A stretch of 64,000 bases of DNA, from assembly GCA_000004985.1 (NCBI GenBank), contig GG738910.1. One strand, written 5' to 3'. Origin of the DNA: Naegleria gruberi (taxonomy: Eukaryota). The position numbers and the translations under genes are program-made. Positions 134-24,809 of the stretch are shown here, piece after piece (the stretch's first letter is position 1; every line of letters begins with the position of its first letter). A model generated the notes under the pieces. It ran no database searches. It saw only the letters and a list, made by a program, of their open reading frames with translations, and was not told the DNA's origin.

Positions 134-922
134 ATGAAACAAGAGTATCAACAAGTATTTAATCCTAGGAATGCATCTTCTAATAATAATAAATATAATA
201 CTAATAATAATAATAACAAAATGTCATTCATTGATGAAACTAATAATGTAACATTAAAAGTTAAAGTGAATCAACGAAATAATAATATGCATATTAAACA
301 ATCAAGATTGAGAAAACCATTACAAAATGATAAATTTCTATTAAATTATTTTGAATTTGATAAACAACAACATTCAAATGATTTAACTGTTTACAAAATT
401 GTTAATATTACAAATAGTAGTACATCATCAGCTCCACCATCAATAATTCCTAATGTTATTCAACAGTATCATCAAGGCTTGACTGCAATATCACCATCAT
501 CATTGGAATCTAATGATTTCATTTCTAATAATTATAGTAATTGTAAAATTAGTAAGAATCATGGTAGAAGAAGATTATCAGTTGATAGTATTGTTACAAC
601 TGAGAAAGTTAAAGTTAAATCACCACTCTCTCCTCAAATTGTAAATTATTCTAATAATAATGAATCTAATTCAAGCAATGCTACCACCACTAATAGTAGT
701 ACTAGTACTAGTTGTAGTAGTAATGATTGTAATATAACTGATAGTAATGATAATTATTATTGGGATTTACTTCTTTCAGAATTACAACAGGAAGAAACCA
801 AAGGCTTGGAATCATCATCCTCACATGATTCACTTTCTACCACAACAACATCACCAACAACATCAACAAGTGAAGTAGACGCGAACAACGTACCATGTGA
901 TTGTCTTGCTCAAATATTTTGA
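134..922 (+). CDS. Fam1 member a: small S/T/N-rich protein with N-terminal motif MSFIDETNNVT-KVKVNQRN-IKQSRLRKPLQNDKFLLNYFEFDKQQ-SNDLTVYKI and mid motif RRRLSVDSIVTTEKVKV. C-terminal motif divergent (PCDCLAQIF).
   Basis: Uninterrupted ATG ORF. The N-terminal ~60 aa are near-identical to 5 other ORFs in the window (8190, 17516, 19195, 22828, 24214). The shared mid motif G-RKP-ID-I-TTEKV is present. Confidence 0.55.
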   Translation: MKQEYQQVFNPRNASSNNNKYNTNNNNNKMSFIDETNNVTLKVKVNQRNNNMHIKQSRLRKPLQNDKFLLNYFEFDKQQHSNDLTVYKIVNITNSSTSSAPPSIIPNVIQQYHQGLTAISPSSLESNDFISNNYSNCKISKNHGRRRLSVDSIVTTEKVKVKSPLSPQIVNYSNNNESNSSNATTTNSSTSTSCSSNDCNITDSNDNYYWDLLLSELQQEETKGLESSSSHDSLSTTTTSPTTSTSEVDANNVPCDCLAQIF

Positions 923-2665: not shown

Positions 2666-5600
2666 NNNNNNNNNNNNNNNNNNNNNNNNNNNNNNNNNNN
2701 NNNNNNNNNNNNNNNNNNNNNNNNNNNNNNNNNNNNNNNNNNNNNNNNNNNNNNNNNNNNNNNNNNNNNNNNNNNNNNNNNNNNNNNNNNNNNNNNNNNN
2801 NNNNNNNNNNNNNNNNNNNNNNNNNNNNNNNNNNNNNNNNNNNNNNNNNNNNNNNNNNNNNNNNNNNNNNNNNNNNNNNNNNNNNNNNNNNNNNNNNNNN
2901 NNNNNNNNNNNNNNNNNNNNNNNNNNNNNNNNNNNNNNNNNNNNNNNNNNNNNNNNNNNNNNNNNNNNNNNNNNNNNNNNNNNNNNNNNNNNNNNNNNNN
3001 NNNNNNNNNNNNNNNNNNNNNNNNNNNNNNNNNNNNNNNNNNNNNNNNNNNNNNNNNNNNNNNNNNNNNNNNNNNNNNNNNNNNNNNNNNNNNNNNNNNN
3101 NNNNNNNNNNNNNNNNNNNNNNNNNNNNNNNNNNNNNNNNNNNNNNNNNNNNNNNNNNNNNNNNNNNNNNNNNNNNNNNNNNNNNNNNNNNNNNNNNNNN
3201 NNNNNNNNNNNNNNNNNNNNNNNNNNNNNNNNNNNNNNNNNNNNNNNNNNNNNNNNNNNNNNNNNNNNNNNNNNNNNNNNNNNNNNNNNNNNNNNNNNNN
3301 NNNNNNNNNNNNNNNNNNNNNNNNNNNNNNNNNNNNNNNNNNNNNNNNNNNNNNNNNNNNNNNNNNNNNNNNNNNNNNNNNNNNNNNNNNNNNNNNNNNN
3401 NNNNNNNNNNNNNNNNNNNNNNNNNNNNNNNNNNNNNNNNNNNNNNNNNNNNNNNNNNNNNNNNNNNNNNNNNNNNNNNNNNNNNNNNNNNNNNNNNNNN
3501 NNNNNNNNNNNNNNNNNNNNNNNNNNNNNNNNNNNNNNNNNNNNNNNNNNNNNNNNNNNNNNNNNNNNNNNNNNNNNNNNNNNNNNNNNNNNNNNNNNNN
3601 NNNNNNNNNNNNNNNNNNNNNNNNNNNNNNNNNNNNNNNNNNNNNNNNNNNNNNNNNNNNNNNNNNNNNNNNNNNNNNNNNNNNNNNNNNNNNNNNNNNN
3701 NNNNNNNNNNNNNNNNNNNNNNNNNNNNNNNNNNNNNNNNNNNNNNNNNNNNNNNNNNNNNNNNNNNNNNNNNNNNNNNNNNNNNNNNNNNNNNNNNNNN
3801 NNNNNNNNNNNNNNNNNNNNNNNNNNNNNNNNNNNNNNNNNNNNNNNNNNNNNNNNNNNNNNNNNNNNNNNNNNNNNNNNNNNNNNNNNNNNNNNNNNNN
3901 NNNNNNNNNNNNNNNNNNNNNNNNNNNNNNNNNNNNNNNNNNNNNNNNNNNNNNNNNNNNNNNNNNNNNNNNNNNNNNNNNNNNNNNNNNNNNNNNNNNN
4001 NNNNNNNNNNNNNNNNNNNNNNNNNNNNNNNNNNNNNNNNNNNNNNNNNNNNNNNNNNNNNNNNNNNNNNNNNNNNNNNNNNNNNNNNNNNNNNNNNNNN
4101 NNNNNNNNNNNNNNNNNNNNNNNNNNNNNNNNNNNNNNNNNNNNNNNNNNNNNNNNNNNNNNNNNNNNNNNNNNNNNNNNNNNNNNNNNNNNNNNNNNNN
4201 NNNNNNNNNNNNNNNNNNNNNNNNNNNNNNNNNNNNNNNNNNNNNNNNNNNNNNNNNNNNNNNNNNNNNNNNNNNNNNNNNNNNNNNNNNNNNNNNNNNN
4301 NNNNNNNNNNNNNNNNNNNNNNNNNNNNNNNNNNNNNNNNNNNNNNNNNNNNNNNNNNNNNNNNNNNNNNNNNNNNNNNNNNNNNNNNNNNNNNNNNNNN
4401 NNNNNNNNNNNNNNNNNNNNNNNNNNNNNNNNNNNNNNNNNNNNNNNNNNNNNNNNNNNNNNNNNNNNNNNNNNNNNNNNNNNNNNNNNNNNNNNNNNNN
4501 NNNNNNNNNNNNNNNNNNNNNNNNNNNNNNNNNNNNNNNNNNNNNNNNNNNNNNNNNNNNNNNNNNNNNNNNNNNNNNNNNNNNNNNNNNNNNNNNNNNN
4601 NNNNNNNNNNNNNNNNNNNNNNNNNNNNNNNNNNNNNNNNNNNNNNNNNNNNNNNNNNNNNNNNNNNNNNNNNNNNNNNNNNNNNNNNNNNNNNNNNNNN
4701 NNNNNNNNNNNNNNNNNNNNNNNNNNNNNNNNNNNNNNNNNNNNNNNNNNNNNNNNNNNNNNNNNNNNNNNNNNNNNNNNNNNNNNNNNNNNNNNNNNNN
4801 NNNNNNNNNNNNNNNNNNNNNNNNNNNNNNNNNNNNNNNNNNNNNNNNNNNNNNNNNNNNNNNNNNNNNNNNNNNNNNNNNNNNNNNNNNNNNNNNNNNN
4901 NNNNNNNNNNNNNNNNNNNNNNNNNNNNNNNNNNNNNNNNNNNNNNNNNNNNNNNNNNNNNNNNNNNNNNNNNNNNNNNNNNNNNNNNNNNNNNNNNNNN
5001 NNNNNNNNNNNNNNNNNNNNNNNNNNNNNNNNNNNNNNNNNNNNNNNNNNNNNNNNNNNNNNNNNNNNNNNNNNNNNNNNNNNNNNNNNNNNNNNNNNNN
5101 NNNNNNNNNNNNNNNNNNNNNNNNNNNNNNNNNNNNNNNNNNNNNNNNNNNNNNNNNNNNNNNNNNNNNNNNNNNNNNNNNNNNNNNNNNNNNNNNNNNN
5201 NNNNNNNNNNNNNNNNNNNNNNNNNNNNNNNNNNNNNNNNNNNNNNNNNNNNNNNNNNNNNNNNNNNNNNNNNNNNNNNNNNNNNNNNNNNNNNNNNNNN
5301 NNNNNNNNNNNNNNNNNNNNNNNNNNNNNNNNNNNNNNNNNNNNNNNNNNNNNNNNNNNNNNNNNNNNNNNNNNNNNNNNNNNNNNNNNNNNNNNNNNNN
5401 NNNNNNNNNNNNNNNNNNNNNNNNNNNNNNNNNNNNNNNNNNNNNNNNNNNNNNNNNNNNNNNNNNNNNNNNNNNNNNNNNNNNNNNNNNNNNNNNNNNN
5501 NNNNNNNNNNNNNNNNNNNNNNNNNNNNNNNNNNNNNNNNNNNNNNNNNNNNNNNNNNNNNNNNNNNNNNNNNNNNNNNNNNNNNNNNNNNNNNNNNNNN

Positions 5601-7981
5601 NNNNNNNNNNNNNNNNNNNNNNNNNNNNNNNNNNNNNNNNNNNNNNNNNNNNNNNNNNNNNNNNNNNNNNNNNNNNNNNNNNNNNNNNNNNNNNNNNNNN
5701 NNNNNNNNNNNNNNNNNNNNNNNNNNNNNNNNNNNNNNNNNNNNNNNNNNNNNNNNNNNNNNNNNNNNNNNNNNNNNNNNNNNNNNNNNNNNNNNNNNNN
5801 NNNNNNNNNNNNNNNNNNNNNNNNNNNNNNNNNNNNNNNNNNNNNNNNNNNNNNNNNNNNNNNNNNNNNNNNNNNNNNNNNNNNNNNNNNNNNNNNNNNN
5901 NNNNNNNNNNNNNNNNNNNNNNNNNNNNNNNNNNNNNNNNNNNNNNNNNNNNNNNNNNNNNNNNNNNNNNNNNNNNNNNNNNNNNNNNNNNNNNNNNNNN
6001 NNNNNNNNNNNNNNNNNNNNNNNNNNNNNNNNNNNNNNNNNNNNNNNNNNNNNNNNNNNNNNNNNNNNNNNNNNNNNNNNNNNNNNNNNNNNNNNNNNNN
6101 NNNNNNNNNNNNNNNNNNNNNNNNNNNNNNNNNNNNNNNNNNNNNNNNNNNNNNNNNNNNNNNNNNNNNNNNNNNNNNNNNNNNNNNNNNNNNNNNNNNN
6201 NNNNNNNNNNNNNNNNNNNNNNNNNNNNNNNNNNNNNNNNNNNNNNNNNNNNNNNNNNNNNNNNNNNNNNNNNNNNNNNNNNNNNNNNNNNNNNNNNNNN
6301 NNNNNNNNNNNNNNNNNNNNNNNNNNNNNNNNNNNNNNNNNNNNNNNNNNNNNNNNNNNNNNNNNNNNNNNNNNNNNNNNNNNNNNNNNNNNNNNNNNNN
6401 NNNNNNNNNNNNNNNNNNNNNNNNNNNNNNNNNNNNNNNNNNNNNNNNNNNNNNNNNNNNNNNNNNNNNNNNNNNNNNNNNNNNNNNNNNNNNNNNNNNN
6501 NNNNNNNNNNNNNNNNNNNNNNNNNNNNNNNNNNNNNNNNNNNNNNNNNNNNNNNNNNNNNNNNNNNNNNNNNNNNNNNNNNNNNNNNNNNNNNNNNNNN
6601 NNNNNNNNNNNNNNNNNNNNNNNNNNNNNNNNNNNNNNNNNNNNNNNNNNNNNNNNNNNNNNNNNNNNNNNNNNNNNNNNNNNNNNNNNNNNNNNNNNNN
6701 NNNNNNNNNNNNNNNNNNNNNNNNNNNNNNNNNNNNNNNNNNNNNNNNNNNNNNNNNNNNNNNNNNNNNNNNNNNNNNNNNNNNNNNNNNNNNNNNNNNN
6801 NNNNNNNNNNNNNNNNNNNNNNNNNNNNNNNNNNNNNNNNNNNNNNNNNNNNNNNNNNNNNNNNNNNNNNNNNNNNNNNNNNNNNNNNNNNNNNNNNNNN
6901 NNNNNNNNNNNNNNNNNNNNNNNNNNNNNNNNNNNNNNNNNNNNNNNNNNNNNNNNNNNNNNNNNNNNNNNNNNNNNNNNNNNNNNNNNNNNNNNNNNNN
7001 NNNNNNNNNNNNNNNNNNNNNNNNNNNNNNNNNNNNNNNNNNNNNNNNNNNNNNNNNNNNNNNNNNNNNNNNNNNNNNNNNNNNNNNNNNNNNNNNNNNN
7101 NNNNNNNNNNNNNNNNNNNNNNNNNNNNNNNNNNNNNNNNNNNNNNNNNNNNNNNNNNNNNNNNNNNNNNNNNNNNNNNNNNNNNNNNNNNNNNNNNNNN
7201 NNNNNNNNNNNNNNNNNNNNNNNNNNNNNNNNNNNNNNNNNNNNNNNNNNNNNNNNNNNNNNNNNNNNNNNNNNNNNNNNNNNNNNNNNNNNNNNNNNNN
7301 NNNNNNNNNNNNNNNNNNNNNNNNNNNNNNNNNNNNNNNNNNNNNNNNNNNNNNNNNNNNNNNNNNNNNNNNNNNNNNNNNNNNNNNNNNNNNNNNNNNN
7401 NNNNNNNNNNNNNNNNNNNNNNNNNNNNNNNNNNNNNNNNNNNNNNNNNNNNNNNNNNNNNNNNNNNNNNNNNNNNNNNNNNNNNNNNNNNNNNNNNNNN
7501 NNNNNNNNNNNNNNNNNNNNNNNNNNNNNNNNNNNNNNNNNNNNNNNNNNNNNNNNNNNNNNNNNNNNNNNNNNNNNNNNNNNNNNNNNNNNNNNNNNNN
7601 NNNNNNNNNNNNNNNNNNNNNNNNNNNNNNNNNNNNNNNNNNNNNNNNNNNNNNNNNNNNNNNNNNNNNNNNNNNNNNNNNNNNNNNNNNNNNNNNNNNN
7701 NNNNNNNNNNNNNNNNNNNNNNNNNNNNNNNNNNNNNNNNNNNNNNNNNNNNNNNNNNNNNNNNNNNNNNNNNNNNNNNNNNNNNNNNNNNNNNNNNNNN
7801 NNNNNNNNNNNNNNNNNNNNNNNNNNNNNNNNNNNNNNNNNNNNNNNNNNNNNNNNNNNNNNNNNNNNNNNNNNNNNNNNNNNNNNNNNNNNNNNNNNNN
7901 NNNNNNNNNNNNNNNNNNNNNNNNNNNNNNNNNNNNNNNNNNNNNNNNNNNNNNNNNNNNNNNNNNNNNNNNNNNNNNNNN
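2666..7981. other. Assembly gap (5316 N). The three long 'ORFs' spanning it (1781..8020, 2619..8921, complement 2635..8016) are artefacts.
   Basis: Run of n. Probably collapsed repeat or family copies, given the flanking family genes. Confidence 0.99.
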
Positions 7982-8189: not shown

Positions 8190-8921
8190 ATGAATAAATC
8201 AGAATCTCAAGATTCAAAACATCAATTAACTAGTAATACTAACAATAATAATAAGAAAAGAAAGAATGATCACATTCAAACTAGTAATTCTAATAATAAT
8301 TCTAATAGTAATGTTAATAATAATTCTAATAGTAATGGTAATAATTCTAATAATTCTAATTCTAATTCTAATTATAATAATGGTAATAATACTAATAATG
8401 GTAACATGTCATTTATAGATGAAACTAATAATGTAACATTAAAAGCTAAAGTGAATCAACGAAATAATAATTTAAATATTAAACAATCAAGATTGAGAAA
8501 ACCATTACAAAATGATAAATTATTAAAAAATTATTTTGAATTTGATAAACAACAACAATCAAATGATTTAATTAAATTTAAATTAATTGATACTACTATT
8601 AATAATATAAATGGTAATATTAAAGATAATTATGTAAATACATTTAATAATAGAATTGGGTGTAGAAAACCATCTATTGATCAAATTATTACAAGTGAAA
8701 AAGTTACATTTAATAATATTATAAATAATAATTTAATTAATAATATTGTAGTATATGATAATAATGATCAACAAGATAATTATTCATTACCTAAAGAAGA
8801 AGAAGAAGCAGATAATTTATTAAATATTGAAGATGAATCAATTTTCAATAATATTGAATTAAATAATGAAAGTGATGGTAATAGTTTTATCAGTTCATTT
8901 TCATTTCTATTTAAAGAATAA
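8190..8921 (+). CDS. Fam1 member b: MSFIDETNNVTLKAKVNQRNNNLNIKQSRLRKPLQNDKLLKNYFEFDKQQQSNDL..., IGCRKPSIDQIITSEKVTF..., ending EEEEADNLLNIEDESIFNNIELNNESDGNSFISSFSFLFKE.
   Basis: The frame is open from the gap. The first ATG after the gap is at 8190 (MNKSES...) and the MSFIDE Met is at 8406. All three family motifs are present, so the 5' end is uncertain. Confidence 0.5.
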   Translation: MNKSESQDSKHQLTSNTNNNNKKRKNDHIQTSNSNNNSNSNVNNNSNSNGNNSNNSNSNSNYNNGNNTNNGNMSFIDETNNVTLKAKVNQRNNNLNIKQSRLRKPLQNDKLLKNYFEFDKQQQSNDLIKFKLIDTTINNINGNIKDNYVNTFNNRIGCRKPSIDQIITSEKVTFNNIINNNLINNIVVYDNNDQQDNYSLPKEEEEADNLLNIEDESIFNNIELNNESDGNSFISSFSFLFKE

Positions 8922-9442: not shown

Positions 9443-10429
9443 ATGATGAATAATAACTCGACTTCAAGTTGGATAAATGAATTTTCCTCTACTGCTCATA
9501 CCTGTTCAGTTGATGTTTTTTGTGGAATGGTCTCTCCATCATTCTCCAACAACAAGCCTTCAATAACAATGAACAATACAATTACAGATGATGAATGTAT
9601 TGAACCAAGTCTAAATCTTGATGTTATTGATTTTATTCAGAGTTGGGAATTATTAAAGATGATGACAACTCCAAAGCAACAATTATTTAATAGAAAGCCT
9701 TTTGACAAGCCTTCTATTCACCAAATGTCAGCCTTCAATAATATCCAATGTACTAAAATCACCTCAACTGTTATGAATTCTATTGATGCTGATATTAAGT
9801 GCACTCCATCACACTCATCCACATGCCATATTGTATTACCATCACCAACTGAGACATTATCTCTACTGACACTTAACACCTCACCTCCTCATCAGCAACC
9901 CTTCAATGCTAATACTATTGAAAATAGCCTGACCAATACCATTTCTAATACTGACATTGCTGATAAGGTACTTTTAACCAATTTAGAATCATATCAATTT
10001 CCCAAGAATCCTTATCATGAACATTATGATCAATCACCACCACCATCAAATGATATATCCATGATGCCACTCCAACAACAAACTAATGTAAACAATACAT
10101 TCAACAAGAAGGATGATAATCGTATTCTAAAGAGAAAGAGAAAGATTTCTAATGTATCTTCATTCGAATCAGAAAAGAGAAAAACCTCAATTTCATCCAC
10201 CACACCACCTACAACATGTTCAAGTAATTCATCCTCAATTGGTAATAATAGTTCATTATCAACAAATGTGCACTCACAACAATCATTCAATAATTGTATT
10301 ATAATTTCAAATCCAAAACATTTGAAAAGAAGAAGAAAATATCAAAAGAGAAAGAATTCAGCCAATACAAATCCTGCTCAAACTCAAATGGAATTTCACT
10401 TTCCAGTTTGGACTTTTCATTTAGAATAA
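9443..10429 (+). CDS. Fam2 member a (328 aa): N-terminal MMNNNSTSSWINE...CIEPSLNLDVIDFIQSWELLKMMTTPKQQLFNRKP, S/T/P-rich middle with KRKRKISNVSSFESEKRKTS, C-terminal basic block NPKHLKRRRKYQKRKNSANTNPAQTQMEFHFPVWTFHLE.
   Basis: ATG ORF. Paralogous to 11002, 11657, 15288, 16323 and complement 26260. No recognisable Pfam-type domain. The basic block is NLS-like. Confidence 0.6.
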   Translation: MMNNNSTSSWINEFSSTAHTCSVDVFCGMVSPSFSNNKPSITMNNTITDDECIEPSLNLDVIDFIQSWELLKMMTTPKQQLFNRKPFDKPSIHQMSAFNNIQCTKITSTVMNSIDADIKCTPSHSSTCHIVLPSPTETLSLLTLNTSPPHQQPFNANTIENSLTNTISNTDIADKVLLTNLESYQFPKNPYHEHYDQSPPPSNDISMMPLQQQTNVNNTFNKKDDNRILKRKRKISNVSSFESEKRKTSISSTTPPTTCSSNSSSIGNNSSLSTNVHSQQSFNNCIIISNPKHLKRRRKYQKRKNSANTNPAQTQMEFHFPVWTFHLE

Positions 10430-10486
10430 ATTGTTTTTTTAATAATATTTGTTTTATATTCTCTGTGTGTCCGAATAATTTAATAT

Positions 10487-10592
10487 TCAACAAGATAATT
10501 ATTCATTACCACTTGAAGAAGCAGATAATTTATTAAATATTGAAGATGAACCAATTTTCAATTTTATTGAATTAAATAATGAAAGTGAAAAT
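10487..10592 (+). pseudogene. Orphan 3'-end fragment of a Fam1 gene (copy of 8765-8880, ~90% identity) lacking the terminal SFLF motif. Marks a duplication breakpoint.
   Basis: 'caacaagataattattcattacc...gcagataatttattaaatattgaagatgaa(t/c)caattttcaat...attgaattaaataatgaaagtga' is shared between 8760-8880 and 10487-10592. The same downstream spacer reappears at 11368-11487, immediately after the gap. Confidence 0.55.
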
Positions 10593-11001
10593 AAACTTCT
10601 GTAAAGAATATACAATTTATGATCAAGTAATAGTGAGATTGTATAATTTCGAAATACGATGAACCAGAATTTACCCTAACACTTACTGACATTCTATTAA
10701 GAAGGAGTGCCACAGCTGACGACATGAAAGAACTGTAATTGTTTAAGAGATTTTATTCGCACTGTACAACAATAGAACTATCGTCCGAATTAGTCATGAA
10801 ATCTAGGAATTGTAGATTATTTCTTTCTATTGTTGGGTATTGCTTCAGGATTTTGTATTTTTAAGGACCTCAATTACTAACATTATTCTTCAAGTACATC
10901 AAGTATTGGAAATATGAGAGAATAAATTGGGCGAGATGCAATTCTCTTTGGAGTTTATGCAGAAGAAATATTCAATGAATATTCTCAAAAAAACAAACAT
11001 T

Positions 11002-11317
11002 ATGATGAGCAATAACTTGACTTCAAGTTGGATAAATGAATATTCCTCTCCTGCTCATACCTGTACAGTTGATGTTCTTTGTGGAATGGTCACTCAATTT
11101 TCATCATCATTCTCAAACTACTCAATTAACAATCAATGTATTGAACCAAGTCTAAATCTTGATGTTATTGAGTTTATGCAGAGTTGGGAATTATTAAAGA
11201 TGATGACAACTCCAAAGCAACAATTATTTAATAGACAGCCTGTTGACAAGCCTTCTATTCAACAAATGTCAGCCTTCAATAATATCCAATGTACTAACAT
11301 CAGCTCAACAGTTATGA
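11002..11317 (+). CDS. Fam2 member b, 5' part only (MMSNNLTSSWINEYSSPAHTCTVDVLCGMV...EPSLNLDVIEFMQSWELLKMMTTPKQQLFNRQP...), truncated by a 50-N gap at 11318-11367.
   Basis: Same N-terminal motifs as 9443 and 11657. An upstream in-frame ATG at 10936 (MQFSLEFMQKKYSMNILKK) is also possible. Confidence 0.5.
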
Positions 11318-11367
11318 NNNNNNNNNNNNNNNNNNNNNNNNNNNNNNNNNNNNNNNNNNNNNNNNNN
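11318..11367. other. Assembly gap (50 N)
   Basis: Run of n. Confidence 0.99.
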
Positions 11368-11656
11368 AACTTCTGTAAAGAATATACAATTTATGATCAA
11401 GTAATAGTGAGATTGTATAATTTCGAAATACGATGAACCAGAATTTACCCTAACACTTACTGACATTCTATTAAGAAGGAGTGCCACAGCATAGTTGTTT
11501 AAGGATTTTGTATTTTTAAGGACCTCAATTACTAACATTATTCTTCAAGTACATCAAGTATTGGAAATATGAGAGAATAAATTGGGCGAGATGCAATTCT
11601 CTTTGGAGTTTATGCAGAAGAAATATTCAATGAATATTCTCAAAAAAACAAACATT

Positions 11657-12640
11657 ATGATGAACAATAACTCGACTTCAAGTTGGATAAATGAATATTC
11701 CTCTCCTGCTCATACCTGTACAGTTGATGTTCTTTGTGGAATGGTCACTCAATTTTCATCATCATTCTCAAACTACTCAATTAACAATCAATGTGTTGAA
11801 CCAAGTCTGAATCTTGATGTTATTGATTTTATGCAGAGTTGGGAATTATTAAAGATGATGACAAATCCAAAGCAACAATTATTTAATAGAAAGCCTAATG
11901 ACAAGCCTTCTATTCAACAAATGTCAGCCTTCAATAATATCCAATGTACTAACATCAGCTCAACTGTTATGAATCCTATTGATGATCATGATGATGATAT
12001 GAAGGACACTCCACCACACTTATCCAAATCCCATATTGTATTTCCATCACCTCAACCATCAACTCAACTGTTCCTATCACCAACAGAAACATTATCTCTG
12101 ACTCTTAACACCTCACCTCCTCAACCATTCAATAACCATAACGAAAATAGCCTGACCAATACCATTTCTAATACTGACACTGCTGATAAGGTACTTTTAC
12201 CCAATTTAGAATCATATCAATTTCTGATGAGCATTAAGAATCCTTATCAACAATATGTGGATCAATCACCACCATCATCATCAATTGAAACATCCATGAT
12301 GCCACTCCAACAACAAACTAATGTAAACAATACATTCAATGATAATCGTATTCTAAAGAGAAAGAGAAAGATTTCTAATGTATCTTCATTCGAATCAGAA
12401 AAGAGAAAAACCTCAAGTTCATCCTCCTCATCATCTACAAGTAATGTATCCTCAATTGGTAATAACAGTTCATTATCAACAACATTCAAAACTCCACTCA
12501 ATAATTGTATTGTAATTTCAAATCCAAAACATTTGAAAAGAAGAAGAAAATATCAAAAGAGAAAGAATTCAGCCAATACAAATCCAGCTCAAACTCAAAT
12601 GGAATTTCATTTTCCAGTATGGACATTTCATTTAGAATAA
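11657..12640 (+). CDS. Fam2 member c (~328 aa from ATG 11657; 352 aa if the upstream ATG 11591 is used): same architecture as a, ending NPKHLKRRRKYQKRKNSANTNPAQTQMEFHFPVWTFHLE.
   Basis: ATG ORF, ~85-90% identical to copy a at both the N- and C-termini. The proximal promoter is identical to copy b (10851-11001 vs 11505-11656). Confidence 0.6.
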   Translation: MMNNNSTSSWINEYSSPAHTCTVDVLCGMVTQFSSSFSNYSINNQCVEPSLNLDVIDFMQSWELLKMMTNPKQQLFNRKPNDKPSIQQMSAFNNIQCTNISSTVMNPIDDHDDDMKDTPPHLSKSHIVFPSPQPSTQLFLSPTETLSLTLNTSPPQPFNNHNENSLTNTISNTDTADKVLLPNLESYQFLMSIKNPYQQYVDQSPPSSSIETSMMPLQQQTNVNNTFNDNRILKRKRKISNVSSFESEKRKTSSSSSSSSTSNVSSIGNNSSLSTTFKTPLNNCIVISNPKHLKRRRKYQKRKNSANTNPAQTQMEFHFPVWTFHLE

Positions 12641-13170: not shown

Positions 13171-13677
13171 ATGAATCCAAACAAACAATCGAATAGAAGA
13201 AAGTCTAAAGCACTCAAATTAACTGTTGTCGATTTTTGTTCTTCCAATCCAACATCAACTAGAAGATCTAACAATGATGATGTTGTCGATGATAATTGTA
13301 AAGTAATGACAAGTAAATATACAGAATACTTTTCAAATAATTCAAAGCCTTTCCAAGTCATTTCATTTCCATTCAAGCCTTCGAATACTTGCTCATCTGG
13401 AATTCAAAAACAACCAAAGAAAAAGAGAATTGAATCGCATCATGATGATCAATTTGGTAAAATACAATTTGGTAATAATAATACAGTTTGTAGTGGTGGC
13501 GGAGGTGATGATTCAGTAGTGGCAAGCCTTCATCAAGATCGAATTGAAGAATCGTCTTCTAATGATCAGCAGCAGCCTTCAACACCAACTTTAATTCAAT
13601 CATTACCATCAATGGATAAAAAAAGACAAAGAAGAACCTCAATTACTATTAGAGAATTATTAAATTATGATGATTAA
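13171..13677 (+). CDS. Fam3 member a (168 aa): MNPNKQSNRRKSKALKLTVVDFCSSNPTS...CKVMTSKYTEYFSNNSKPFQVISFP...MDKKRQRRTSITIRELLNYDD.
   Basis: ATG ORF. ~85% identical to complement(26909..27415). Shares the C-terminal R-R-T-[SA]-I-T-x-x-E-L-L-N motif with complement(20797..21369). Confidence 0.55.
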   Translation: MNPNKQSNRRKSKALKLTVVDFCSSNPTSTRRSNNDDVVDDNCKVMTSKYTEYFSNNSKPFQVISFPFKPSNTCSSGIQKQPKKKRIESHHDDQFGKIQFGNNNTVCSGGGGDDSVVASLHQDRIEESSSNDQQQPSTPTLIQSLPSMDKKRQRRTSITIRELLNYDD

Positions 13678-15287: not shown

Positions 15288-15937
15288 TTGTTCAGTATCC
15301 ANNNNNNNNNNNNNNNNNNNNNNNNNNNNNNNNNNNNNNNNNNNNNNNNNNATGTTGATGTACCCTCTCCATTTAATATTCATTGTGGAATAGTCTCTCC
15401 ATCATCAATGTCATCCTCCTCCTCTTCTATCAATACCAGTAACAATGAATTGCCAAGTTTAAATCTTGATATTGTTGATTTTATGCAGAGTTGGAAAATA
15501 TTACAGACAATCAAACAAGTTCATCACCAACAAGATGACAACGCTTTGTTTTTCATTCAGATGAACTAGTGAAAGATCAACAATTAATTAGTTCCTCATT
15601 AGTAGTATTAAACAATTCTGATCACAATGAGGCACTAGAAACGTTTCAACTTCCAACAATATTCACCACCACCAAGAATGAAAATACTACCATGCCCAAT
15701 ATCTCATCAATCTCAAAGAAGAGAAAGATTTCCTCTTCTTCATTCAAATATTATACAAGTCCAAATACAGAAAAGAAAATCTCAATTTCATCCACTACTT
15801 CTTGTATTGATAATTCAAATTCAAAACATTTGAAAAGAAGACGAAAATGTCAAAAGAGAAAGAATTCAGCCTATTCCAATCCAGCACAAACTCAAATGGA
15901 GTTTAATTTTCCAATATGGACTTTTCATATGGAATAA
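15288..15937 (+). pseudogene. Fam2 member d, disrupted: 49-N gap at 15302-15351 and a 2-bp indel relative to copy e around 15555-15565 that splits the reading frame (track ORFs 15288..15569 and 15569..15937). Retains SLNLDIVDFMQSWKIL and ...NSKHLKRRRKCQKRKNSAYSNPAQTQMEFNFPIWTFHME.
   Basis: Alignment by eye with copy e (16323..16928): d has 'gatgacaacgctttgtttttcattcag' where e has 'gatgacatctgctattttcattcaa' (+2 nt in d, in a T-run). Confidence 0.45.
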
Positions 15938-16322: not shown

Positions 16323-16928
16323 ATGCTGATAACCTCTTCTTCCACCTGTACATTCAATAGCAATTTCAGCAATACAATACAATATCAAGATAATGAGCCA
16401 ATTCTAAATCTTGATATTGTTGATTTCATGCAGAGTTGGGAATTATTCAAAATGACAACAACAAATCAACAAGATGACATCTGCTATTTTCATTCAAATG
16501 AACCATTGAAAGATCAACAATTAATTACTTCCTCATTAGTATTAAACAATTCTAACTACAATGAGGCATTAGAAACCTTTCCAATAACAATACCTCTGCC
16601 CACAACCAATAATGAAAATACTACCACGCTCAATACCATACCAATAATCAATAATCAGAAGAAGAGAAAGATTTCCTCTTCCTTCAAATATTATACAAGT
16701 CCAAATACAGAAAAGAAGAAGAAAATCTCAATTTCATCCACTTCTATTACTACTTCATCTTGTCATTGTTCAAATAATGTATATTGTAAATTATCTTGTA
16801 ATTGTATTGTAAATTCAAATCCAAAACATTTGAAAAGAAGAGAATATCAAAAGAGAAAGACCTATTCAAATTCAGCACAAGCTCAAATGGAATTTAATTT
16901 TCCAATATGGACTTTTCATTTGGAATAA
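16323..16928 (+). CDS. Fam2 member e (201 aa, short form): ...EPILNLDIVDFMQSWELFKMTTT...NPKHLKRREYQKRKTYSNSAQAQMEFNFPIWTFHLE.
   Basis: ATG ORF carrying both family motifs. The Cys-containing stretch SSCHCSNNVYCKLSCNC is unique to this copy. Confidence 0.55.
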   Translation: MLITSSSTCTFNSNFSNTIQYQDNEPILNLDIVDFMQSWELFKMTTTNQQDDICYFHSNEPLKDQQLITSSLVLNNSNYNEALETFPITIPLPTTNNENTTTLNTIPIINNQKKRKISSSFKYYTSPNTEKKKKISISSTSITTSSCHCSNNVYCKLSCNCIVNSNPKHLKRREYQKRKTYSNSAQAQMEFNFPIWTFHLE

Positions 16929-17515: not shown

Positions 17516-18061
17516 TTAATTGTAAAGGAATGAAATTGAACTGAGAAAGCTTTCACAATCATCAAATTCTACTGCTTCTTCTTCTTCTTCTTTTGAAGTA
17601 TTATCACTGCTTCCACTACTACTGCTTCCACCACTACTATTGTTGATTGTTAGTGATGATGATGAATATTCAATATTACTAGATGCATGTTGATTCAAAT
17701 TATTAGTATTATTCATAGTTTTGCATTTAACCTTTGTAATAATTGTATCCTTTACATTTTCACTAGTACCTGATGATAATGATGATGCATTCGAGCAAGT
17801 TGTAATATTTTCTGAAAAAGTATTGTCAGTAGATGCATTTGGTGGATTAATAATTTTGTAAATAGTTAAATCACTTTCTGTTAATTGTTGCTTATCAAAT
17901 TCAAAGTAATTTTTCAGTAAATTATCATTTTGTAATGGTTTTCTCAATCTCGATTGTTTAATTTTCAATTCCTTATTTCTCTTTTTCACTTTTGCTTTCT
18001 TTGTAACATTACTAGTTTCATCAATGAATGACATGTTGTTGGCATTCTGGTTCTTCTTCAT
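17516..18061 (-). CDS. Fam1 member c (181 aa): MKKNQNANNMSFIDETSNVTKKAKVKKRNKELKIKQSRLRKPLQNDNLLKNYFEFDKQQLTESDLTIYKI...EEEEEAVEFDDCESFLSSISFLYN.
   Basis: ATG ORF. Complete set of family motifs. Near-identical tandem paralog at 19195..19758. Confidence 0.6.
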   Translation of the reverse strand: MKKNQNANNMSFIDETSNVTKKAKVKKRNKELKIKQSRLRKPLQNDNLLKNYFEFDKQQLTESDLTIYKIINPPNASTDNTFSENITTCSNASSLSSGTSENVKDTIITKVKCKTMNNTNNLNQHASSNIEYSSSSLTINNSSGGSSSSGSSDNTSKEEEEEAVEFDDCESFLSSISFLYN

Positions 18062-19194
18062 TGGATATGTGTTCTTGATTATTTTTTAATAATATTAATC
18101 ACTCTTGTTGTGGTATTTTTGTTGTACTAACTTGTTGTTGCTGTTATTTGACTTTCTTTTATAAGACAGCATTCCATATATAGAACATGCCAAATGTATA
18201 TTCATTCCAATAGATACAGTGCTGGTGTTTTCAATCAACATACCTATATTATTTGAGATTGATAGGTCAATGTTATATTCTCTTGAACTGGATTGAATGT
18301 AGATGAGAGCTTGTTGATGATTTTTTTGTTGTAAACTAAAGTCATGTCATGAAGCCTTGGCGAGAGTTGTTATGTAATCAAATGATTAAATTAGAAAGTC
18401 TATAAGTGGTTATTAGTATTAAATAAGTGGAATTATTCTCAATAATAGTTCTCTAATTTCCCATTGCCCGACTATTAGCCATTCGAATACAAATGATAGA
18501 CATGCATGTTTAACCATGATGATTCGGCATGTGAAGGTTGAATGGATGTGTTATTAGATGCATGCAATGGAGTACAAGTTTGATACATGCATCAAACAAA
18601 CAATTAGATCATCATCATGATGCTTCACCACATGCATGCAATAAATACATGTGATTCTAAAAAGCCATCAACAACACTTTAAGGCTCACAAAACCTTTCG
18701 CGAAATAAATTGTTGTTGAAACATTTTCAAAAAATACAACACACATCTACCAAGTGTTGAGATAGTAAAAGCATGTGTGGTTTTCTAGCTTTGTCATCAT
18801 GATTCAATTTTTTTTAAAGTTGTAATTGCTTTCTAGACCCCAAATGTGTTCTCAGGATTGAATAAGGAAGGTAGAACTCGTTCCTGCGATATTCATAAAA
18901 AGTAAGTTGGACAACTAGATTAATGTTTATTCGTATCTCTCTCTTGCAACACATGCACGCAAGAAATGAATAGTGCTCACCTGTTTGATGAAGAACCTAT
19001 ATTACAAAAGTTAGCATGCATTCAATAATTGTTTAAAAAAATCTTAAAAGTAATACAACTTTTGGAAACGATGATTGTGTGAGCTAATTTAATGTTTTTA
19101 GTAATTTTACATGTTTATTGATTGAACTTAATTTGAATAGATCATAAATAGACATGCGTAAATACTACTCGTAAAACTGTTTCAAAGAGAGAAC

Positions 19195-19758
19195 TTAATT
19201 ATATAGAAACGAAATTGAACTGAGAAAGCTTTCACAATCATCAAATTCTACTGCTTCTTCTTCTTTTAAAGTATTATCACTGCATGCACTACTGCTGCTT
19301 CCACTAGTACTGCTTCCACCACTACTGCTGTTGATTGAGTTGATTGTTAGTGATGATGATGAATATTCAATATTACTAGATGCATGTTGATTCAAATTAT
19401 TATTATTCATAGTTTTGCATTTAACCTTCTGACATGTAATAATTGTATCAACTGTTGATGTTTCTATTGGACATGTTGTATTATTTTCAATACTACTAGA
19501 AGTATTAGAATTATCAATGATGGTGGTTGATGCATTTGGTGGATTAATAATTTTGTAAATAGTTAAATCACTTTCTGTTAATTGTTGCTTATCAAATTCA
19601 AAATAATTTTTCAGTAAATTATCATTTTGTAATGGTTTTCTCAATCTCGATTGTTTAATTTTCAATTCCTTATTTCTCTTTTTCACTTTTGCTTTCTTTG
19701 TAACATTGCTAGTTTCATCAATGAATGACATGTTGTTGGAATTCTGGTTCTTCTTCAT
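19195..19758 (-). CDS. Fam1 member d (187 aa), tandem duplicate of c
   Basis: ATG ORF. The N-terminal 75 aa and the C-terminal 25 aa are identical to c. The middle S/T-rich region differs slightly. Confidence 0.6.
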   Translation of the reverse strand: MKKNQNSNNMSFIDETSNVTKKAKVKKRNKELKIKQSRLRKPLQNDNLLKNYFEFDKQQLTESDLTIYKIINPPNASTTIIDNSNTSSSIENNTTCPIETSTVDTIITCQKVKCKTMNNNNLNQHASSNIEYSSSSLTINSINSSSGGSSTSGSSSSACSDNTLKEEEAVEFDDCESFLSSISFLYN

Positions 19759-20796
19759 GTGTGATGATTATTTTTTAATAAAATTAATCACTCTTGTTGT
19801 TGTGGTCTTTTTGTTGTACTAAATTGTTGTTACTTGTGGCTTTCTTTAATAAGTTTGACTACCAATTATAGAACATGCCAAATGAACATTCATTCCAATA
19901 GATACAGTGCTGTTGTTTTCTATCAACATACCTATATTATTTGAGATTGATAATTCAATGCTACTTGTTGTTGTTTTTTTGTTGGACAATCAGTTGTAAC
20001 AATGAATAGACCACATAGCAAGCACTATTGTACTATTGTACTCTTGTCATGAGAGATGAAATCTCAATATTAAATTAGAAAGTCTAAAACTGGTTAGTAT
20101 TAAATATGTATTGTGTTCTCAATAATAGTTCTCTAATATTCCAATTGTCCAACAATTATCAACTATCCAAATCAATCTGTTTCCATTATCACAACACATT
20201 TGAACATGCACATCATCTTCATTTGGCTAGAAGAGGAATCCAGTAAGTTGTGGCCAGTTAGACTAATTGAAAGGTCAGATGTAACCAACACAATATATTG
20301 TGGATTACAAGTTGTTGCTGTTTACAGTCAGATCAGGCACACACATCTTGTTTTTACCATCACCTACATTATGATCATGTAGCACATGTATCTAATAACA
20401 CTCTAAGGCTAATATGAATTAACATTTGTAATTGTTCTTCCGAGACACATGTATCTATATTATGGATGTTGTTGAAGAAATAGTTGTTGAAGAAATACAA
20501 CATGAAAAGCATCAGATGATGGAACGAGGTTGTGTGCTGAAGGTTTTGTCCAGCGCTTCGCGGGTTGACTCAATTTTTTTTAAAAGTACCAACCTATCGG
20601 TGTCTAAAACTCCAAATTGATATTCTAAGTATCAAAGTTGAATATGGCAGGTTTCGAGTATATCACATATTCAAGCATGTGTTTCTATTTCCATTCATTA
20701 AATAACATTTTACAAGCCTGTTTTATTTAACTTTTCAATTCGAAATACATTGTAACACGTGGATACAAGCCTTGTTGTCATCTTTGAGCAAAAAAA

Positions 20797-22827: not shown

Positions 22828-23883
22828 ATGAAGAATAATACTAATAGAGTTACTTATAATAGTAATAATAATACTACTACTACTACTACTAATACTAATA
22901 CTTGTACTAATAATAATAATCATGGGATTAGACGGAGTGATTCAAGCAGTAGTAATAGCAACATGTCATTCATTGATGAAACTAGTAATGTTACAATGAA
23001 AGTTAAAGTAAAAAAGAGAAATCATCAATTGAATATTAAACAATCGAGATTGAGAAAACCATTACAAAATGATAATTTACTGAAAAATTACTTTGAATTT
23101 GATAAAAAGCAACAATCAAACGATTTGACTGTTTACAAAATTATTAATACTACTACTACAAATGCTACTAATTCTACCACCAACAACACCAACACCACCA
23201 GTTGTAGTTCTAATAATATTAAAGAGGAAGAAGAAGAAAAGGAAAATTTCATTACAATGAATAACACTATTAATACTATTAATAATAATAATAATGGAAT
23301 TGATAAGAAGATGCATCGATTTGGATGTAGAAAACCAACAATTGATAAAGTTGTTACAACAGAGAAAGTGCAAGTGAGCAAGAATTACAAATCAACAAGT
23401 TTGAATAGTATTGCAACAACAAGTAATACTATTACAAATAATTATTTAAATAATCACAACAATTATATTGGAAATAATCCATTGAAAAGTAATGAAAGAG
23501 TTGAAGAATATCAACAACAATTAGAATATAATAATCGAGTTTATAATGAATTTACTATTAATCATTACAATGATGTAAATAATATGAATCAATTATTTAT
23601 TAATAGTAATAATAATAATACTATTTCATATCCTCTCACTACTACCACAACTACAACTGCTGCTAATTTACCAATTCAACAAGTTTACAATCAACAATTT
23701 AATAATCAATTTAATAATCAATTATCATATTTATGGAATTCTCGAGTCAATTATTCAATTAATAATAGTGATAGTAATAGTAATAATAGTCAAACTAATA
23801 ATTCAAAAGAGGAAGAAGAAGAATTTGATGATTGTAAAAGTTTTCTCAGTTCCATTTCATTTCTATATGATTATCAAAAATAA
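22828..23883 (+). CDS. Fam1 member e (351 aa, long form): N/T-rich leader, then MSFIDETSNVTMKVKVKKRNHQLNIKQSRLRKPLQNDNLLKNYFEFDKKQQSNDLTVYKI, ...FGCRKPTIDKVVTTEKVQV..., ...SKEEEEEFDDCKSFLSSISFLYDYQK.
   Basis: ATG ORF with all three family motifs. The leader may be 5'UTR if translation starts at the MSFIDE Met (~22963). Confidence 0.55.
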   Translation: MKNNTNRVTYNSNNNTTTTTTNTNTCTNNNNHGIRRSDSSSSNSNMSFIDETSNVTMKVKVKKRNHQLNIKQSRLRKPLQNDNLLKNYFEFDKKQQSNDLTVYKIINTTTTNATNSTTNNTNTTSCSSNNIKEEEEEKENFITMNNTINTINNNNNGIDKKMHRFGCRKPTIDKVVTTEKVQVSKNYKSTSLNSIATTSNTITNNYLNNHNNYIGNNPLKSNERVEEYQQQLEYNNRVYNEFTINHYNDVNNMNQLFINSNNNNTISYPLTTTTTTTAANLPIQQVYNQQFNNQFNNQLSYLWNSRVNYSINNSDSNSNNSQTNNSKEEEEEFDDCKSFLSSISFLYDYQK

Positions 23884-24213: not shown

Positions 24214-24673
24214 ATGAAGAAGAATATCAACTCATCACAACATTTTACTGATGAAACTAAAAAGATTGTCAATAATTGTAGGAAGAGGGATGAGAATTTG
24301 AAAAGTCATCGACAACCCAGATTTAAAAAATCATTGAGAAATTCCAACTTTTTAAAGAATTATTTCGAGTTTGAAAGTGGTGATCATTCGAGAGATCAAT
24401 TAACAGTATACAAAATGAGGAATCAAAGTAATAGGCACCAATCAATTGAACATTGTAAGAAAAAAGATTGTTAATATTTCCAAAAATAGTAATTCCATTC
24501 CTGAAGCCTCCAATAATGACTCTTCTGCTTCAATACGAGACTTGCCAATGAATGTTTTCAATTATGAAAATAATATAATGATGATATTCAGCAATTTATT
24601 TAATTCTTCGTCACAGTTACCAAATGTGGAAGACGATGATTGCCAAAGTTTTCTAAGCTCTTTATCATTCTAA
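24214..24673 (+). pseudogene. Divergent Fam1 member f with a reading-frame break near 24445-24475: N-terminal ...FTDETKKIVNN...RQPRFKKSLRNSNFLKNYFEFESGDHSRDQLTVYKM, and a C-terminal part in another frame ending ...EDDDCQSFLSSLSF.
   Basis: Two adjacent track ORFs (24214..24474, 24446..24673) in different frames carry the N- and C-terminal family motifs. I could not find a GT..AG intron with compatible phase (GTAAGA at 24455 with AG at 24488 gives the wrong phase). Confidence 0.4.
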
Positions 24674-24809
24674 TATTGTATGTATAAATTTTATAAAAAA
24701 ACAATTTATTCTAAATGAAAACTCCATATTGGAAAGTGAAATTCCATTTGAGTTTGTGCTGGATTTGTATTGGTTGACTTCTTTTTCTTTTGATATTTTC
24801 GTCTTTTTT

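What the first reader, a model, noticed from the sequence alone, without database searches (positions are those of the whole stretch)
8190..8921. Fam1: novel tripartite-motif protein family (6 copies in the window)
All members share three motifs. The N-terminal motif is M-S-F-I-D-E-T-[SN]-N-V-T-x-K-x-K-V-x-x-R-N-x(2-3)-I-K-Q-S-R-L-R-K-P-L-Q-N-D-[NK]-[LF]-L-[KL]-N-Y-F-E-F-D-K-Q-Q-x(2-3)-[SD]-D-L-T-[VI]-Y-K-I. The central motif is [GR]-[CR]-R-K-[PL]-[ST]-[IV]-D-x-[IV]-[IV]-T-[ST]-E-K-V-x-V. The C-terminal motif is acidic E(4-5)-x(0-3)-F-D-D-C-[EK]-S-F-L-S-S-I-S-F-L-Y, or FISSFSFLF in the degenerate form. Intervening S/T/N-rich linkers are hypervariable, 60-250 aa. Copies are at 134, 8190, complement 17516, complement 19195, 22828 and 24214 (the last frameshifted). 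I cannot match the motifs to any family I know. The constant termini with variable linkers suggest an adaptor or regulator whose two ends engage conserved partners.
Basis: seen in the sequence. Interest (0 to 1): 0.6.

Follow-up and report, generated by a model that had tools for sequence, protein, structure and literature searches.

The report
Orphan disordered-protein gene family in Naegleria
The six repeated genes are real members of an undescribed protein family found only in the amoeboflagellates Naegleria and Willaertia; the proteins are mostly disordered, with a basic head and an acidic, hydrophobic tail, are probably nuclear regulators, and nothing about them points to an unusual mechanism.

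Summary
The window carries six paralogs at the stated coordinates, plus one extra gene relic at 10481-10588. They share a 60-residue N-terminal motif that is 75-100% identical among c1-c5. The literal motif patterns contain errors: c1 lacks the C-terminal motif, c3 and c4 have a degenerate central motif, and c6 is frameshifted.

The window is Naegleria gruberi (Heterolobosea), not Amoebozoa. An exhaustive profile search of 1.84 billion proteins found 27 cluster representatives. All come from N. gruberi (at least 10 annotated loci), N. lovaniensis, Willaertia magna (at least 10) or unnamed environmental contigs, and all are annotated as hypothetical.

AlphaFold2 with a 20-sequence alignment suggests that the N-terminal and central motifs form one small helix-plus-three-strand module, split by a linker of about 6 to 200 residues. 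The rest is disordered.

Across the family the head is basic (+3 to +9 net charge). The tail is acidic (29 of 31) and rich in hydrophobic residues, like an activation or docking peptide. The genes lie among RWP-RK transcription-factor genes and other orphan families.

Best guess, by inference only: lineage-specific nuclear regulators. Interest is modest.

The parts
8190..8921 (+). Fam1 copy c2, the finding itself: 243 aa counted from the first ATG. The 5' end is uncertain because the frame is open upstream into the N gap at 2666-7981.
   Evidence: ORF and sequence. It is not annotated as a protein in the databases searched.
8406..8585 (+). c2 N-terminal motif (MSFIDET...RLRKPLQNDKLLKNYFEFDKQQQSNDLIKFKL). 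In the model it forms a helix and strands beta1 and beta2.
   Evidence: Coordinates. AlphaFold2 run on alignment A5 gives helix 9-24 and strands 45-48 and 57-64, with pLDDT 71-88 at the start and 64-76 over the strands.
8658..8711 (+). c2 central motif GCRKPSIDQIITSEKVTF. It is predicted to be strand beta3, pairing with the end of the N-motif.
   Evidence: Coordinates. Strand 95-102 in the model. The [IV][IV]TxEK[IV] core is conserved in most Naegleria homologs.
8793..8912 (+). c2 acidic stretch plus the degenerate C-terminal motif (KEEEEADN...FISSFSFLF).
134..922 (+). Fam1 copy c1, 262 aa. N-motif at 221-400 and central motif at 563-616. The C-terminal motif is absent (it ends CDCLAQIF), so the copy is possibly decaying.
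17516..18061 (-). Fam1 copy c3, 181 aa, equal to NAEGRDRAFT_53198. N-motif at 17852-18034, degenerate central motif at 17723-17752, C-motif at 17522-17590.
   Evidence: 100% identical to P0001. Coordinates.
19195..19758 (-). Fam1 copy c4, 187 aa, equal to NAEGRDRAFT_53199. It is a recent tandem duplicate of c3. N-motif at 19549-19731, central motif at 19417-19452, C-motif at 19201-19263.
   Evidence: Equal to P0003. The locus alignment with c3 is a mosaic with one patch diverged by indels.
22828..23883 (+). Fam1 copy c5, 351 aa. It is the only copy with all three motifs in canonical form. N-motif at 22963-23142, central motif at 23323-23376, C-motif at 23809-23868.
   Evidence: A partial allelic or haplotig model, P0004, lies on an 8.9-kb contig.
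24214..24673 (+). Fam1 copy c6. It is frameshifted in this assembly (frames 24214-24474 and 24446-24673) and its motifs are degenerate.
   Evidence: An intact 152-aa counterpart, P0005, exists on a 974-bp ENA/Logan contig.
10481..10588 (+). Relic of the 3' part of a Fam1 gene, 88% DNA identity to c2 8762-8875. There is no N-motif nearby.

Best explanation
Fam1 is a genuine, undescribed protein family restricted to the Naegleria/Willaertia branch of Heterolobosea. It expanded by tandem duplication.

Each protein has three elements:
1. A basic head module of about 65 residues. Its signature is [FI][IV]DET, a lysine-rich helix, then [RK]LRKxLxNxxLLxNYF[EV][WFY] and LxxYK[IV].
2. One or two hypervariable, low-complexity disordered linkers. 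These tolerate large insertions and deletions.
3. A short C-terminal hydrophobic or amphipathic peptide, usually preceded by acidic residues.

Most likely mechanism (inferred, not shown): the proteins are nuclear regulators. The basic head binds a conserved partner, either nucleic acid or a DNA-bound factor. The acidic, hydrophobic tail recruits a second conserved partner, in the manner of an acidic activation or docking peptide. The linkers act only as flexible spacers.
For: **Shown.**
- Six paralogs lie in the window, and the N-motif is under purifying selection. pN/pS is 0.21-0.52 between the diverged copies, and c3/c4 differ by 2 synonymous changes only.
- The head is conserved across genera. 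There are 27 cluster representatives, all from N. gruberi, N. lovaniensis, Willaertia magna or environmental contigs, with D-E-T, L and Y invariant and LRKxL and NxF nearly so.
- Tandem pairs also occur in Willaertia, for example ABK040_004914/004915 and 006246/006247.
- In the AlphaFold2 model built on 20 sequences, helix 9-24 and strands 45-48, 57-64 and 95-102 are present. The central motif is the third strand. Mean pLDDT is 67, and 83-88 at the N-terminus. The same strand pairing appears in the independent full-length c4 model, where the linkers have pLDDT below 50.
- The natural head-to-central linker varies from about 6 residues (NAEGRDRAFT_72123 and 70228) to about 150 (N. lovaniensis).

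**Family-wide polarity.**
- The first 40 residues of the head carry a net charge of +3 to +9 in 31 of 31 members.
- The last 30 residues are net negative in 29 of 31 and contain 5-16 hydrophobic residues.
- A K[KR]x[KR] motif, like a classical nuclear localisation signal, is present in 18 of 31 heads.
- No transmembrane segment or signal peptide is evident by inspection.

**Context.**
- The copies lie within a roughly 30-kb cluster that also holds two RWP-RK transcription-factor paralogs.
- Those paralogs have domain sequences like the N. fowleri RWP-RK domains in PMC8296547 Table S3.
Against: - No expression, localisation or binding data could be obtained. No paper mentions these genes.
- The head resembles no known DNA-binding or protein-binding domain.
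- The model is only of medium confidence (pLDDT 67, pTM 0.34), and the alignment behind it is shallow.
- The nuclear-localisation-like motif is absent from c1, c2 and c5.
- Co-location with RWP-RK genes may mean little, because N. gruberi has 39 of them. The one Willaertia locus examined has no RWP-RK neighbour on record.
- Acidic, hydrophobic peptides also serve as export signals, SUMO-interaction motifs or other docking motifs.
- c1 (no tail motif) and c6 (frameshift) show that some copies are decaying.
Confidence: 0.35

Rival explanations
1. The proteins are cytoplasmic or shuttling adaptors built from short linear motifs. The conserved pieces are docking peptides that fold only on partners such as importins or exportin, SUMO, or cytoskeletal or trafficking machinery. 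The proteins have no role in transcription.
For: - Most of each protein is predicted to be disordered.
- No globular fold match exists.
- The leucine-rich tails (LLLALLYVLT, NLDLLQILMQF, LKLDLEDFIQSL) resemble export signals, and the Willaertia stretches ILISEE and IIVSD resemble SUMO-interaction motifs. Both resemblances are by inspection only.
- A similar L-x-L-D-x-x-D-F-I-x-S motif sits near the N-terminus of the unrelated neighbouring family FamB. A profile (HMM) of the Willaertia tail motif ranks a FamB reading frame first among 1177 window reading frames, at E=0.0024. This hints at a portable docking peptide.
Against: - The motif resemblances are by eye only. The FamB match is weak, and only one of its copies scores.
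- AlphaFold2 predicts intramolecular strand pairing, not free peptides.
- The strongly basic head present in every member is more typical of nuclear or nucleic-acid-binding proteins.
Confidence: 0.25
2. The conserved blocks are kept alike by gene conversion among clustered paralogs, or by a constraint at the nucleotide level such as an RNA or DNA element, rather than by protein function. The genes would then be largely dispensable or decaying.
For: - A 41-nt core is identical in five copies apart from one synonymous A/G.
- Between c3 and c4 the N-motif is 181/183 nt identical, while a patch just downstream is unalignable.
- c1 lacks the tail, c6 is frameshifted and one relic exists.
- Only c3 and c4 are annotated as complete genes on this scaffold.
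Against: - The same protein signature is conserved on other scaffolds and in N. lovaniensis and Willaertia. Gene conversion with this cluster cannot act there.
- Synonymous differences do accumulate elsewhere in the motif (pS 0.18-0.53), with pN/pS below 1.
- By my rough count, not a run test, the shortage of synonymous change in the core compared with the rest of the motif is at most marginal. The AT-biased codon usage also limits the choices.
- An intact c6 counterpart exists in another sample.
Confidence: 0.07
3. The genes are cargo of a mobile element or an integrated giant-virus fragment. This would explain the multi-copy orphan families and the lower GC content (27-31% in 8-30 kb against 31-37% in 30-64 kb).
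For: The GC content drops, and several orphan families are packed together in multiple copies on both strands.
Against: - Outside the c3/c4 duplicate, copies share no flanking DNA. Only the coding motifs align.
- No transposase or viral domain was found in the neighbouring reading frames scanned.
- No relative was found in 2.9 million viral contigs.
- Members are dispersed on many scaffolds in three species and diverge as paralogs do.
Confidence: 0.03
4. The head is a divergent Cip/Kip-KRP type CDK-inhibitor domain. NYFEF...LTVYKI superficially resembles WNFDF...GKYEWQEV of p27 and the plant KRP proteins.
For: Only the pattern of aromatic residues in a predicted beta-hairpin. The lead came from my recollection of the p27, p21, p57 and KRP1 sequences.
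Against: - hhalign of the family profile against a p27/p21/p57/KRP1 alignment gives probability 0.7% and E=0.087.
- No CDI (PF02234) hit appears even at E<=10.
- There is no RxLF cyclin-docking motif, and the spacing is wrong: about 8 residues instead of about 27, by inspection.
Confidence: 0.02

Closest known systems
Modular transcription activators and co-activators with an acidic, hydrophobic activation peptide (Gcn4, VP16 or CITED type). This is a functional class, not a homologous family.
   Same: A basic region at one end, a long disordered spacer, and a short acidic peptide with bulky hydrophobic residues at the other end. An example is EEEEEFDDCESFLSSISFLY. The Willaertia equivalent is EEFGLKLDLEDFIQSL.
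   Different: There is no recognisable DNA-binding domain, whether bZIP, Myb, HMG or another type. Activation has not been tested. The resemblance rests on composition and layout only.
RWP-RK transcription factors (Pfam PF02042), the third largest transcription-factor family in Naegleria (PMC8296547 Table S3).
   Same: Two RWP-RK paralogs (24810-25370 and 27707-28216, minus strand) lie in the same roughly 30-kb cluster as the Fam1 copies. Both families are expanded in Naegleria.
   Different: Fam1 has no RWP-RK domain. hhalign gives probability 0.1%, and there is no Pfam hit.
Cip/Kip and plant KRP CDK inhibitors (Pfam PF02234).
   Same: Both are small, largely disordered proteins that include an aromatic-rich beta-hairpin.
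   Different: The profile comparison is negative. The cyclin-docking motif and the correct spacing are absent.
Lineage-specific orphan families with low-complexity linkers in AT-rich protist genomes, such as the N-rich proteins of Dictyostelium or Plasmodium.
   Same: N/S/T-rich linkers that change by insertions and deletions, flanking short conserved blocks. Tandem expansion is also shared.
   Different: This is a general evolutionary pattern, not a family. Fam1 has its own well-defined head signature, conserved across two genera.

Membership tests
Fam1 as defined here (head signature [FI][IV]DET...[RK]LRKxLxNxxLLxNYF...LxxYK) | A significant match to the N-motif profile. | tested here: met
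   c1-c5 match a corrected pattern. c3/c4 (P0001-P0003) score E about 1e-41 in a local hmmsearch. In the library search, the c6 counterpart P0005 scores 5e-26 and the c5 allele P0004 scores 1e-27.
Fam1 as defined here | A central strand motif [IV][IV]TxEK[IV] downstream of the head. | tested here: met
   Canonical in c1, c2 and c5. Degenerate in c3 and c4. Doubtful in c6. Present in most Naegleria homologs and weaker in Willaertia.
Fam1 as defined here | A C-terminal acidic, hydrophobic motif. | tested here: inconclusive
   Present in c2-c6 and absent from c1. Across the family its sequence varies: DDCxSFLSS, LLLALLY or LKLDLEDFIQS. It is a shared character rather than an alignable motif.
Any Pfam-A family | A score at or above the curated gathering threshold. 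| tested here: not met
   No hit reaches its threshold for the six copies, the 20 head-plus-central segments or 10 full-length homologs. The one exception is a peptidase M20 part in Willaertia P0029, which is probably a merged gene model.
Any protein with a solved structure | Sequence-profile or fold similarity. | tested here: not met
Cip/Kip-KRP CDK inhibitors (PF02234) | A profile match to the kinase-inhibitory domain. | tested here: not met
   hhalign probability 0.7%. No CDI hit at E<=10.
RWP-RK (PF02042) | An RWPxRK-type helix-turn-helix domain. | tested here: not met
   hhalign probability 0.1% against Naegleria RWP-RK domains.
Transposable element or viral gene | Shared flanking repeats, element-type proteins, or viral homologs. 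| tested here: not met
   Self-BLAST aligns only the coding motifs between non-sister copies. No relative in IMG/VR. No element domains in the neighbouring reading frames scanned.
Acidic-activator type nuclear regulators (functional class) | Nuclear localisation and activation or recruitment by the tail peptide. | not testable with these tools
   Only composition is available: head +3 to +9, tail net negative in 29 of 31, nuclear-localisation-like motif in 18 of 31.

The most novel reading that the evidence does not exclude
The head (N-motif plus the distant central strand) is a previously unseen nucleic-acid-binding or transcription-factor-docking domain specific to Heterolobosea. It would be a split helix-plus-three-strand module that tolerates insertions of up to about 200 residues. 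Fam1 would then be a new class of transcription regulators working alongside the expanded RWP-RK factors in the same cluster.
Probability: 0.15. Interest if true: 0.55.

Novelty: new variant of a known kind. Interest (0 to 1): 0.3.

Why it matters
If the inference is right, Fam1 adds a Heterolobosea-specific set of regulators to a lineage whose gene regulation is almost unstudied. That lineage includes the pathogen Naegleria fowleri's genus. Fam1 would also define a new small domain worth a Pfam entry.

In practice, the result corrects the taxonomic assumption from Amoebozoa to Naegleria. It widens the family from 6 copies to dozens of members in two genera. It also reduces 'three motifs' to one split module plus one tail peptide, which tells an experimenter which constructs to make.

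Lineage-restricted families of unknown function are very common in protist genomes. Nothing here points to an unusual mechanism, so the finding is useful annotation rather than a surprise.

Tried and rejected
- **Known domains.** Pfam scans of the copies, the homologs and the neighbours found nothing for Fam1.
- **CDK-inhibitor idea.** Rejected by hhalign.
- **Relationship to RWP-RK or to the neighbouring family FamB.** Both rejected by hhalign, at probability 0.1% and 0.7%.
- **Shared tail motif with FamB.** Only weak support: one copy at E=0.0024 in a 1177-frame database.
- **Viral origin.** No relatives in IMG/VR.
- **More loci from JGI metagenomes.** None confirmed. The broad alignment A4 was too diverse for pattern design.
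- **Word-index homolog searches with profiles.** These recovered only 1-3 proteins and were far less useful than the exhaustive search.
- **Exact-sequence look-ups of c3, c5 and P0002.** They were meant to find transcript contigs or allelic context. None is on record.
- **Literature.** Searches for locus tags and motif strings found nothing. Supplements of two Naegleria omics papers do not list these genes.
- **Other checks.** Tandem-repeat and tRNA scans of the region showed nothing relevant.
- **Full-length AlphaFold2 on 6 sequences.** Too low in confidence to use for anything beyond disorder.

Full report
**1. What is in the sequence**

The left 30 kb of the window has lower GC than the right half (27-31% in 8-30 kb against 31-37%) and contains assembly gaps. 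It is packed with short reading frames that fall into a few repeated families.

- c1, 134-922 (+).
- c2, 8190-8921 (+).
- c3, 17516-18061 (-).
- c4, 19195-19758 (-).
- c5, 22828-23883 (+).
- c6, a frameshifted copy at 24214-24474 and 24446-24673 (+).

tblastn between c1-c5 gives E-values of 1e-30 to 1e-49. A seventh piece, 10481-10588, is an 88%-identical DNA relic of the 3' part of c2.

The N-terminal motif is 60-61 residues long, MSFIDET...YKI, and is 75-80% identical to c5 in c1-c4. Its 41-nt core occurs five times, against zero expected by chance.

- The written N-motif pattern has a spacer error and matches no copy. With a spacer of 4 residues it matches c1-c5.
- c1 has no C-terminal motif.
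- The central motif is degenerate in c3 and c4.
- Only c5 is canonical for all three motifs.
- The c2 frame is open upstream into a 5.3-kb N gap, so 8190 may not be its start.

**2. Whose genome it is, and how big the family is**

c3 is 100% identical to 'predicted protein NAEGRDRAFT_53198' of Naegleria gruberi, on a 243,952-bp scaffold. c4 is NAEGRDRAFT_53199. The guess of Amoebozoa and dictyBase is therefore wrong. The organism is a heterolobosean.

I searched a profile of the N-motif exhaustively against 1.84 billion representative proteins. It returned 27 proteins at E<=1e-3, 10 of them at E<=1e-10. Every named one is from one of three species:
- N. gruberi: NAEGRDRAFT_45892, 67553, 72123, 70228, 71658/76731, 76150 and 76322/71135.
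- N. lovaniensis: C9374_014028, 868 aa.
- Willaertia magna: at least 10 genes, including the tandem pairs 004914/004915 and 006246/006247.

The remainder are unnamed ENA, Logan or JGI contigs. All are annotated as predicted or hypothetical proteins. No N. fowleri protein was named among the representatives. Because clustering is at 50% identity, this does not show that the family is absent there.

**3. Anatomy across the family**

The alignment of 29 head sequences keeps D-E-T, one L and one Y invariant. L-R-K-x-L and N-x-F are nearly invariant. The family signature is:

[FI][IV]DET-x2-[VT]-x2-K-(basic, 8-18 residues)-[RK]LRKxLxNxx[LF]LxNYF[EV][WFYM]-x5-12-LxxYK[ILMV]

Its distance from the head ranges from about 6 residues (NAEGRDRAFT_72123 and 70228) to about 150 (N. 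lovaniensis).

The tail is conserved in character more than in sequence:
- DDCxSFLSSxS in the window's subfamily.
- Leucine-rich stretches such as LLLALLYVLT and NLDLLQILMQF in other N. gruberi members.
- [IV][LI][IV]S[ED]xFxLxLDxxDFIxS in Willaertia.

Quantitatively:
- The first 40 head residues carry a net charge of +3 to +9 in 31 of 31 members.
- The last 30 residues are net negative in 29 of 31.
- The last 30 residues hold 5-16 hydrophobic residues.
- 18 of 31 heads contain a K[KR]x[KR] motif.

**4. Structure prediction**

Full-length c4, run with the six-sequence alignment, gives pLDDT 46. The linkers are below 50, which indicates disorder.

The c2 head-to-central segment, run with a 20-sequence alignment, gives mean pLDDT 67, and 83-88 over the first 20 residues. 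The model contains a helix at 9-24 and strands at 45-48 (YFEF), 57-64 (DLIKFKLI) and 95-102 (the central motif).

Both runs pair the central motif with the LxxYKI strand. The 'tripartite' protein is therefore better described as one split helix-plus-sheet module plus a tail peptide. This is a prediction of medium confidence, not a demonstration.

**5. Evolution**

In the N-motif, pN/pS is 0.21-0.52 between the diverged copies, with pS of 0.18-0.53. The protein is therefore constrained.

c3 and c4 are a recent tandem duplicate. Their N-motifs are nearly identical and about 200 bp of upstream sequence is shared. One patch in the first linker is unalignable and was remodelled by insertions and deletions.

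Among non-sister copies, only the N-motif aligns as DNA, plus the C-motif among c3, c4 and c5. This argues against a mobile element.

The invariant 41-nt core could reflect gene conversion or codon bias. Conservation of the same protein signature on other scaffolds and in other genera shows that conversion cannot be the whole story.

c6 is frameshifted here, but an intact 152-aa counterpart exists in another sample.

**6. Comparison with what is known**

- No Pfam-A family reaches its threshold for any copy or homolog.
- The PDB profile search is negative.
- A resemblance I noticed to the p27/KRP CDK-inhibitor hairpin was tested and rejected (hhalign 0.7%).
- Fam1 is not related to the RWP-RK domain (0.1%).
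- Fam1 is not related to the neighbouring orphan family FamB (0.7%).
- No relatives exist in viral contigs.
- No paper mentions the genes or motifs.

The closest 'works like' comparison is with modular regulators that have a basic binding end and an acidic, hydrophobic activation or docking peptide. That is an analogy of layout only.

**7. Context**

The same cluster holds two RWP-RK transcription-factor paralogs (24810-25370 and 27707-28216, minus strand). Their domain closely resembles the N. fowleri RWP-RK domains tabulated in PMC8296547. In that paper's table, RWP-RK is the third largest transcription-factor family in Naegleria, with 39 genes in N. gruberi.

Two further orphan families, FamB and FamC, are interleaved with these genes.

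FamB carries a motif, LNLDVIDFIQSWELL, which resembles the Willaertia Fam1 tail. The statistical support is weak.

The 30-64 kb half of the window contains ordinary genes, judged from their translations.

**8. Verdict**

The family is real and undescribed, and it is restricted to the Naegleria/Willaertia lineage.

The most likely function is a nuclear regulatory or adaptor protein, in which a basic split head module and an acidic, hydrophobic tail each engage conserved partners. This is inference from composition, conservation and genomic context, and I put its confidence at about 0.35.

The main rival is a non-nuclear adaptor built from short linear motifs (about 0.25).

The sequence family is new. 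Its architecture is of a common type, and orphan families like this are frequent in protists. Interest is therefore modest (0.3).

Noticed in passing
window 24810-25370 (-) and 27707-28216 (-): Two paralogous RWP-RK transcription-factor genes, 98% identical over the domain region. The domain reads ...MIRVLHLSQIQAAKILDCHLSTLKRRFNKTKHSLGLDAWPQNY. The Pfam RWP-RK score is below threshold (E=0.0035), but the sequence closely matches the N. fowleri RWP-RK domains listed in PMC8296547 Table S3. The first copy is cut by a 50-N gap.
   Followed up: partly
window 9443-10429, 10927-11436, 11582-12640, 15569-15937, 16323-16928 (+); 25820-26332 and 24706-24813 (-): A second orphan family, FamB, with at least 7 copies or fragments. 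Its C-terminus is nearly invariant: KHLKRRRKYQKRK..NPAQTQMEFHFP[VI]WTFHLE. Near the N-terminus it has the motif EPxLNLDxxDFxQSWELxKM. There is no Pfam match and no profile relationship to Fam1. The N-proximal motif resembles the C-terminal motif of the Willaertia Fam1 homologs, with weak statistical support.
   Followed up: partly
window 13171-13677 (+), 26909-27415 (-), 20797-21369 (-): A third orphan family, FamC. It runs from MNPNKQSNRRK to RRTSITIRELLNYDD. Two copies are 67% identical and a third is more distant and assigned by eye. There is no Pfam match.
   Followed up: no
window 2666-7981, plus 50-N gaps at 1633, 11318, 15302, 24829 and 25863: The assembly is fragmentary exactly where the repeated families lie. 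Copy number, order and the c2 and c6 gene structures may therefore be misassembled. P0002 and P0004, on a separate 8.9-kb contig, look like allelic or haplotig versions of c4 and c5.
   Followed up: partly
window about 18090-18290 and about 19790-19990 (upstream of c3 and c4, minus strand): About 200 bp upstream of c3 and c4 is more than 90% identical. Sequence further upstream and part of the coding linker have diverged. This is probably a shared promoter retained after the tandem duplication.
   Followed up: no
window 293-333, 8478-8518, 17922-17962, 19619-19659, 23035-23075: A 41-nt stretch encoding IKQSRLRKPLQND is identical in five copies except for one synonymous A/G. The copies share the less obvious codons TTG, AGA and CCA. 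The cause could be codon bias, gene conversion or a nucleotide-level constraint, and this is unresolved.
   Followed up: partly
L001 9293-10303 (Willaertia magna JBEGDK010000120.1): Two Fam1 homologs (ABK040_004914 and 004915) sit in tandem next to RCC1-like repeat genes, with no RWP-RK gene on record in this 19-kb stretch. Tandem duplication of the family therefore recurs in Willaertia, but the RWP-RK neighbourhood does not.
   Followed up: partly
Willaertia proteins P0029 and P0034 (652-660 aa): A Fam1 homolog is fused to a peptidase M20 domain in the gene model. A stand-alone 156-aa version, P0035, lies on the same contig as P0029. The fusion is therefore probably an annotation merge of adjacent genes.
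   Followed up: no
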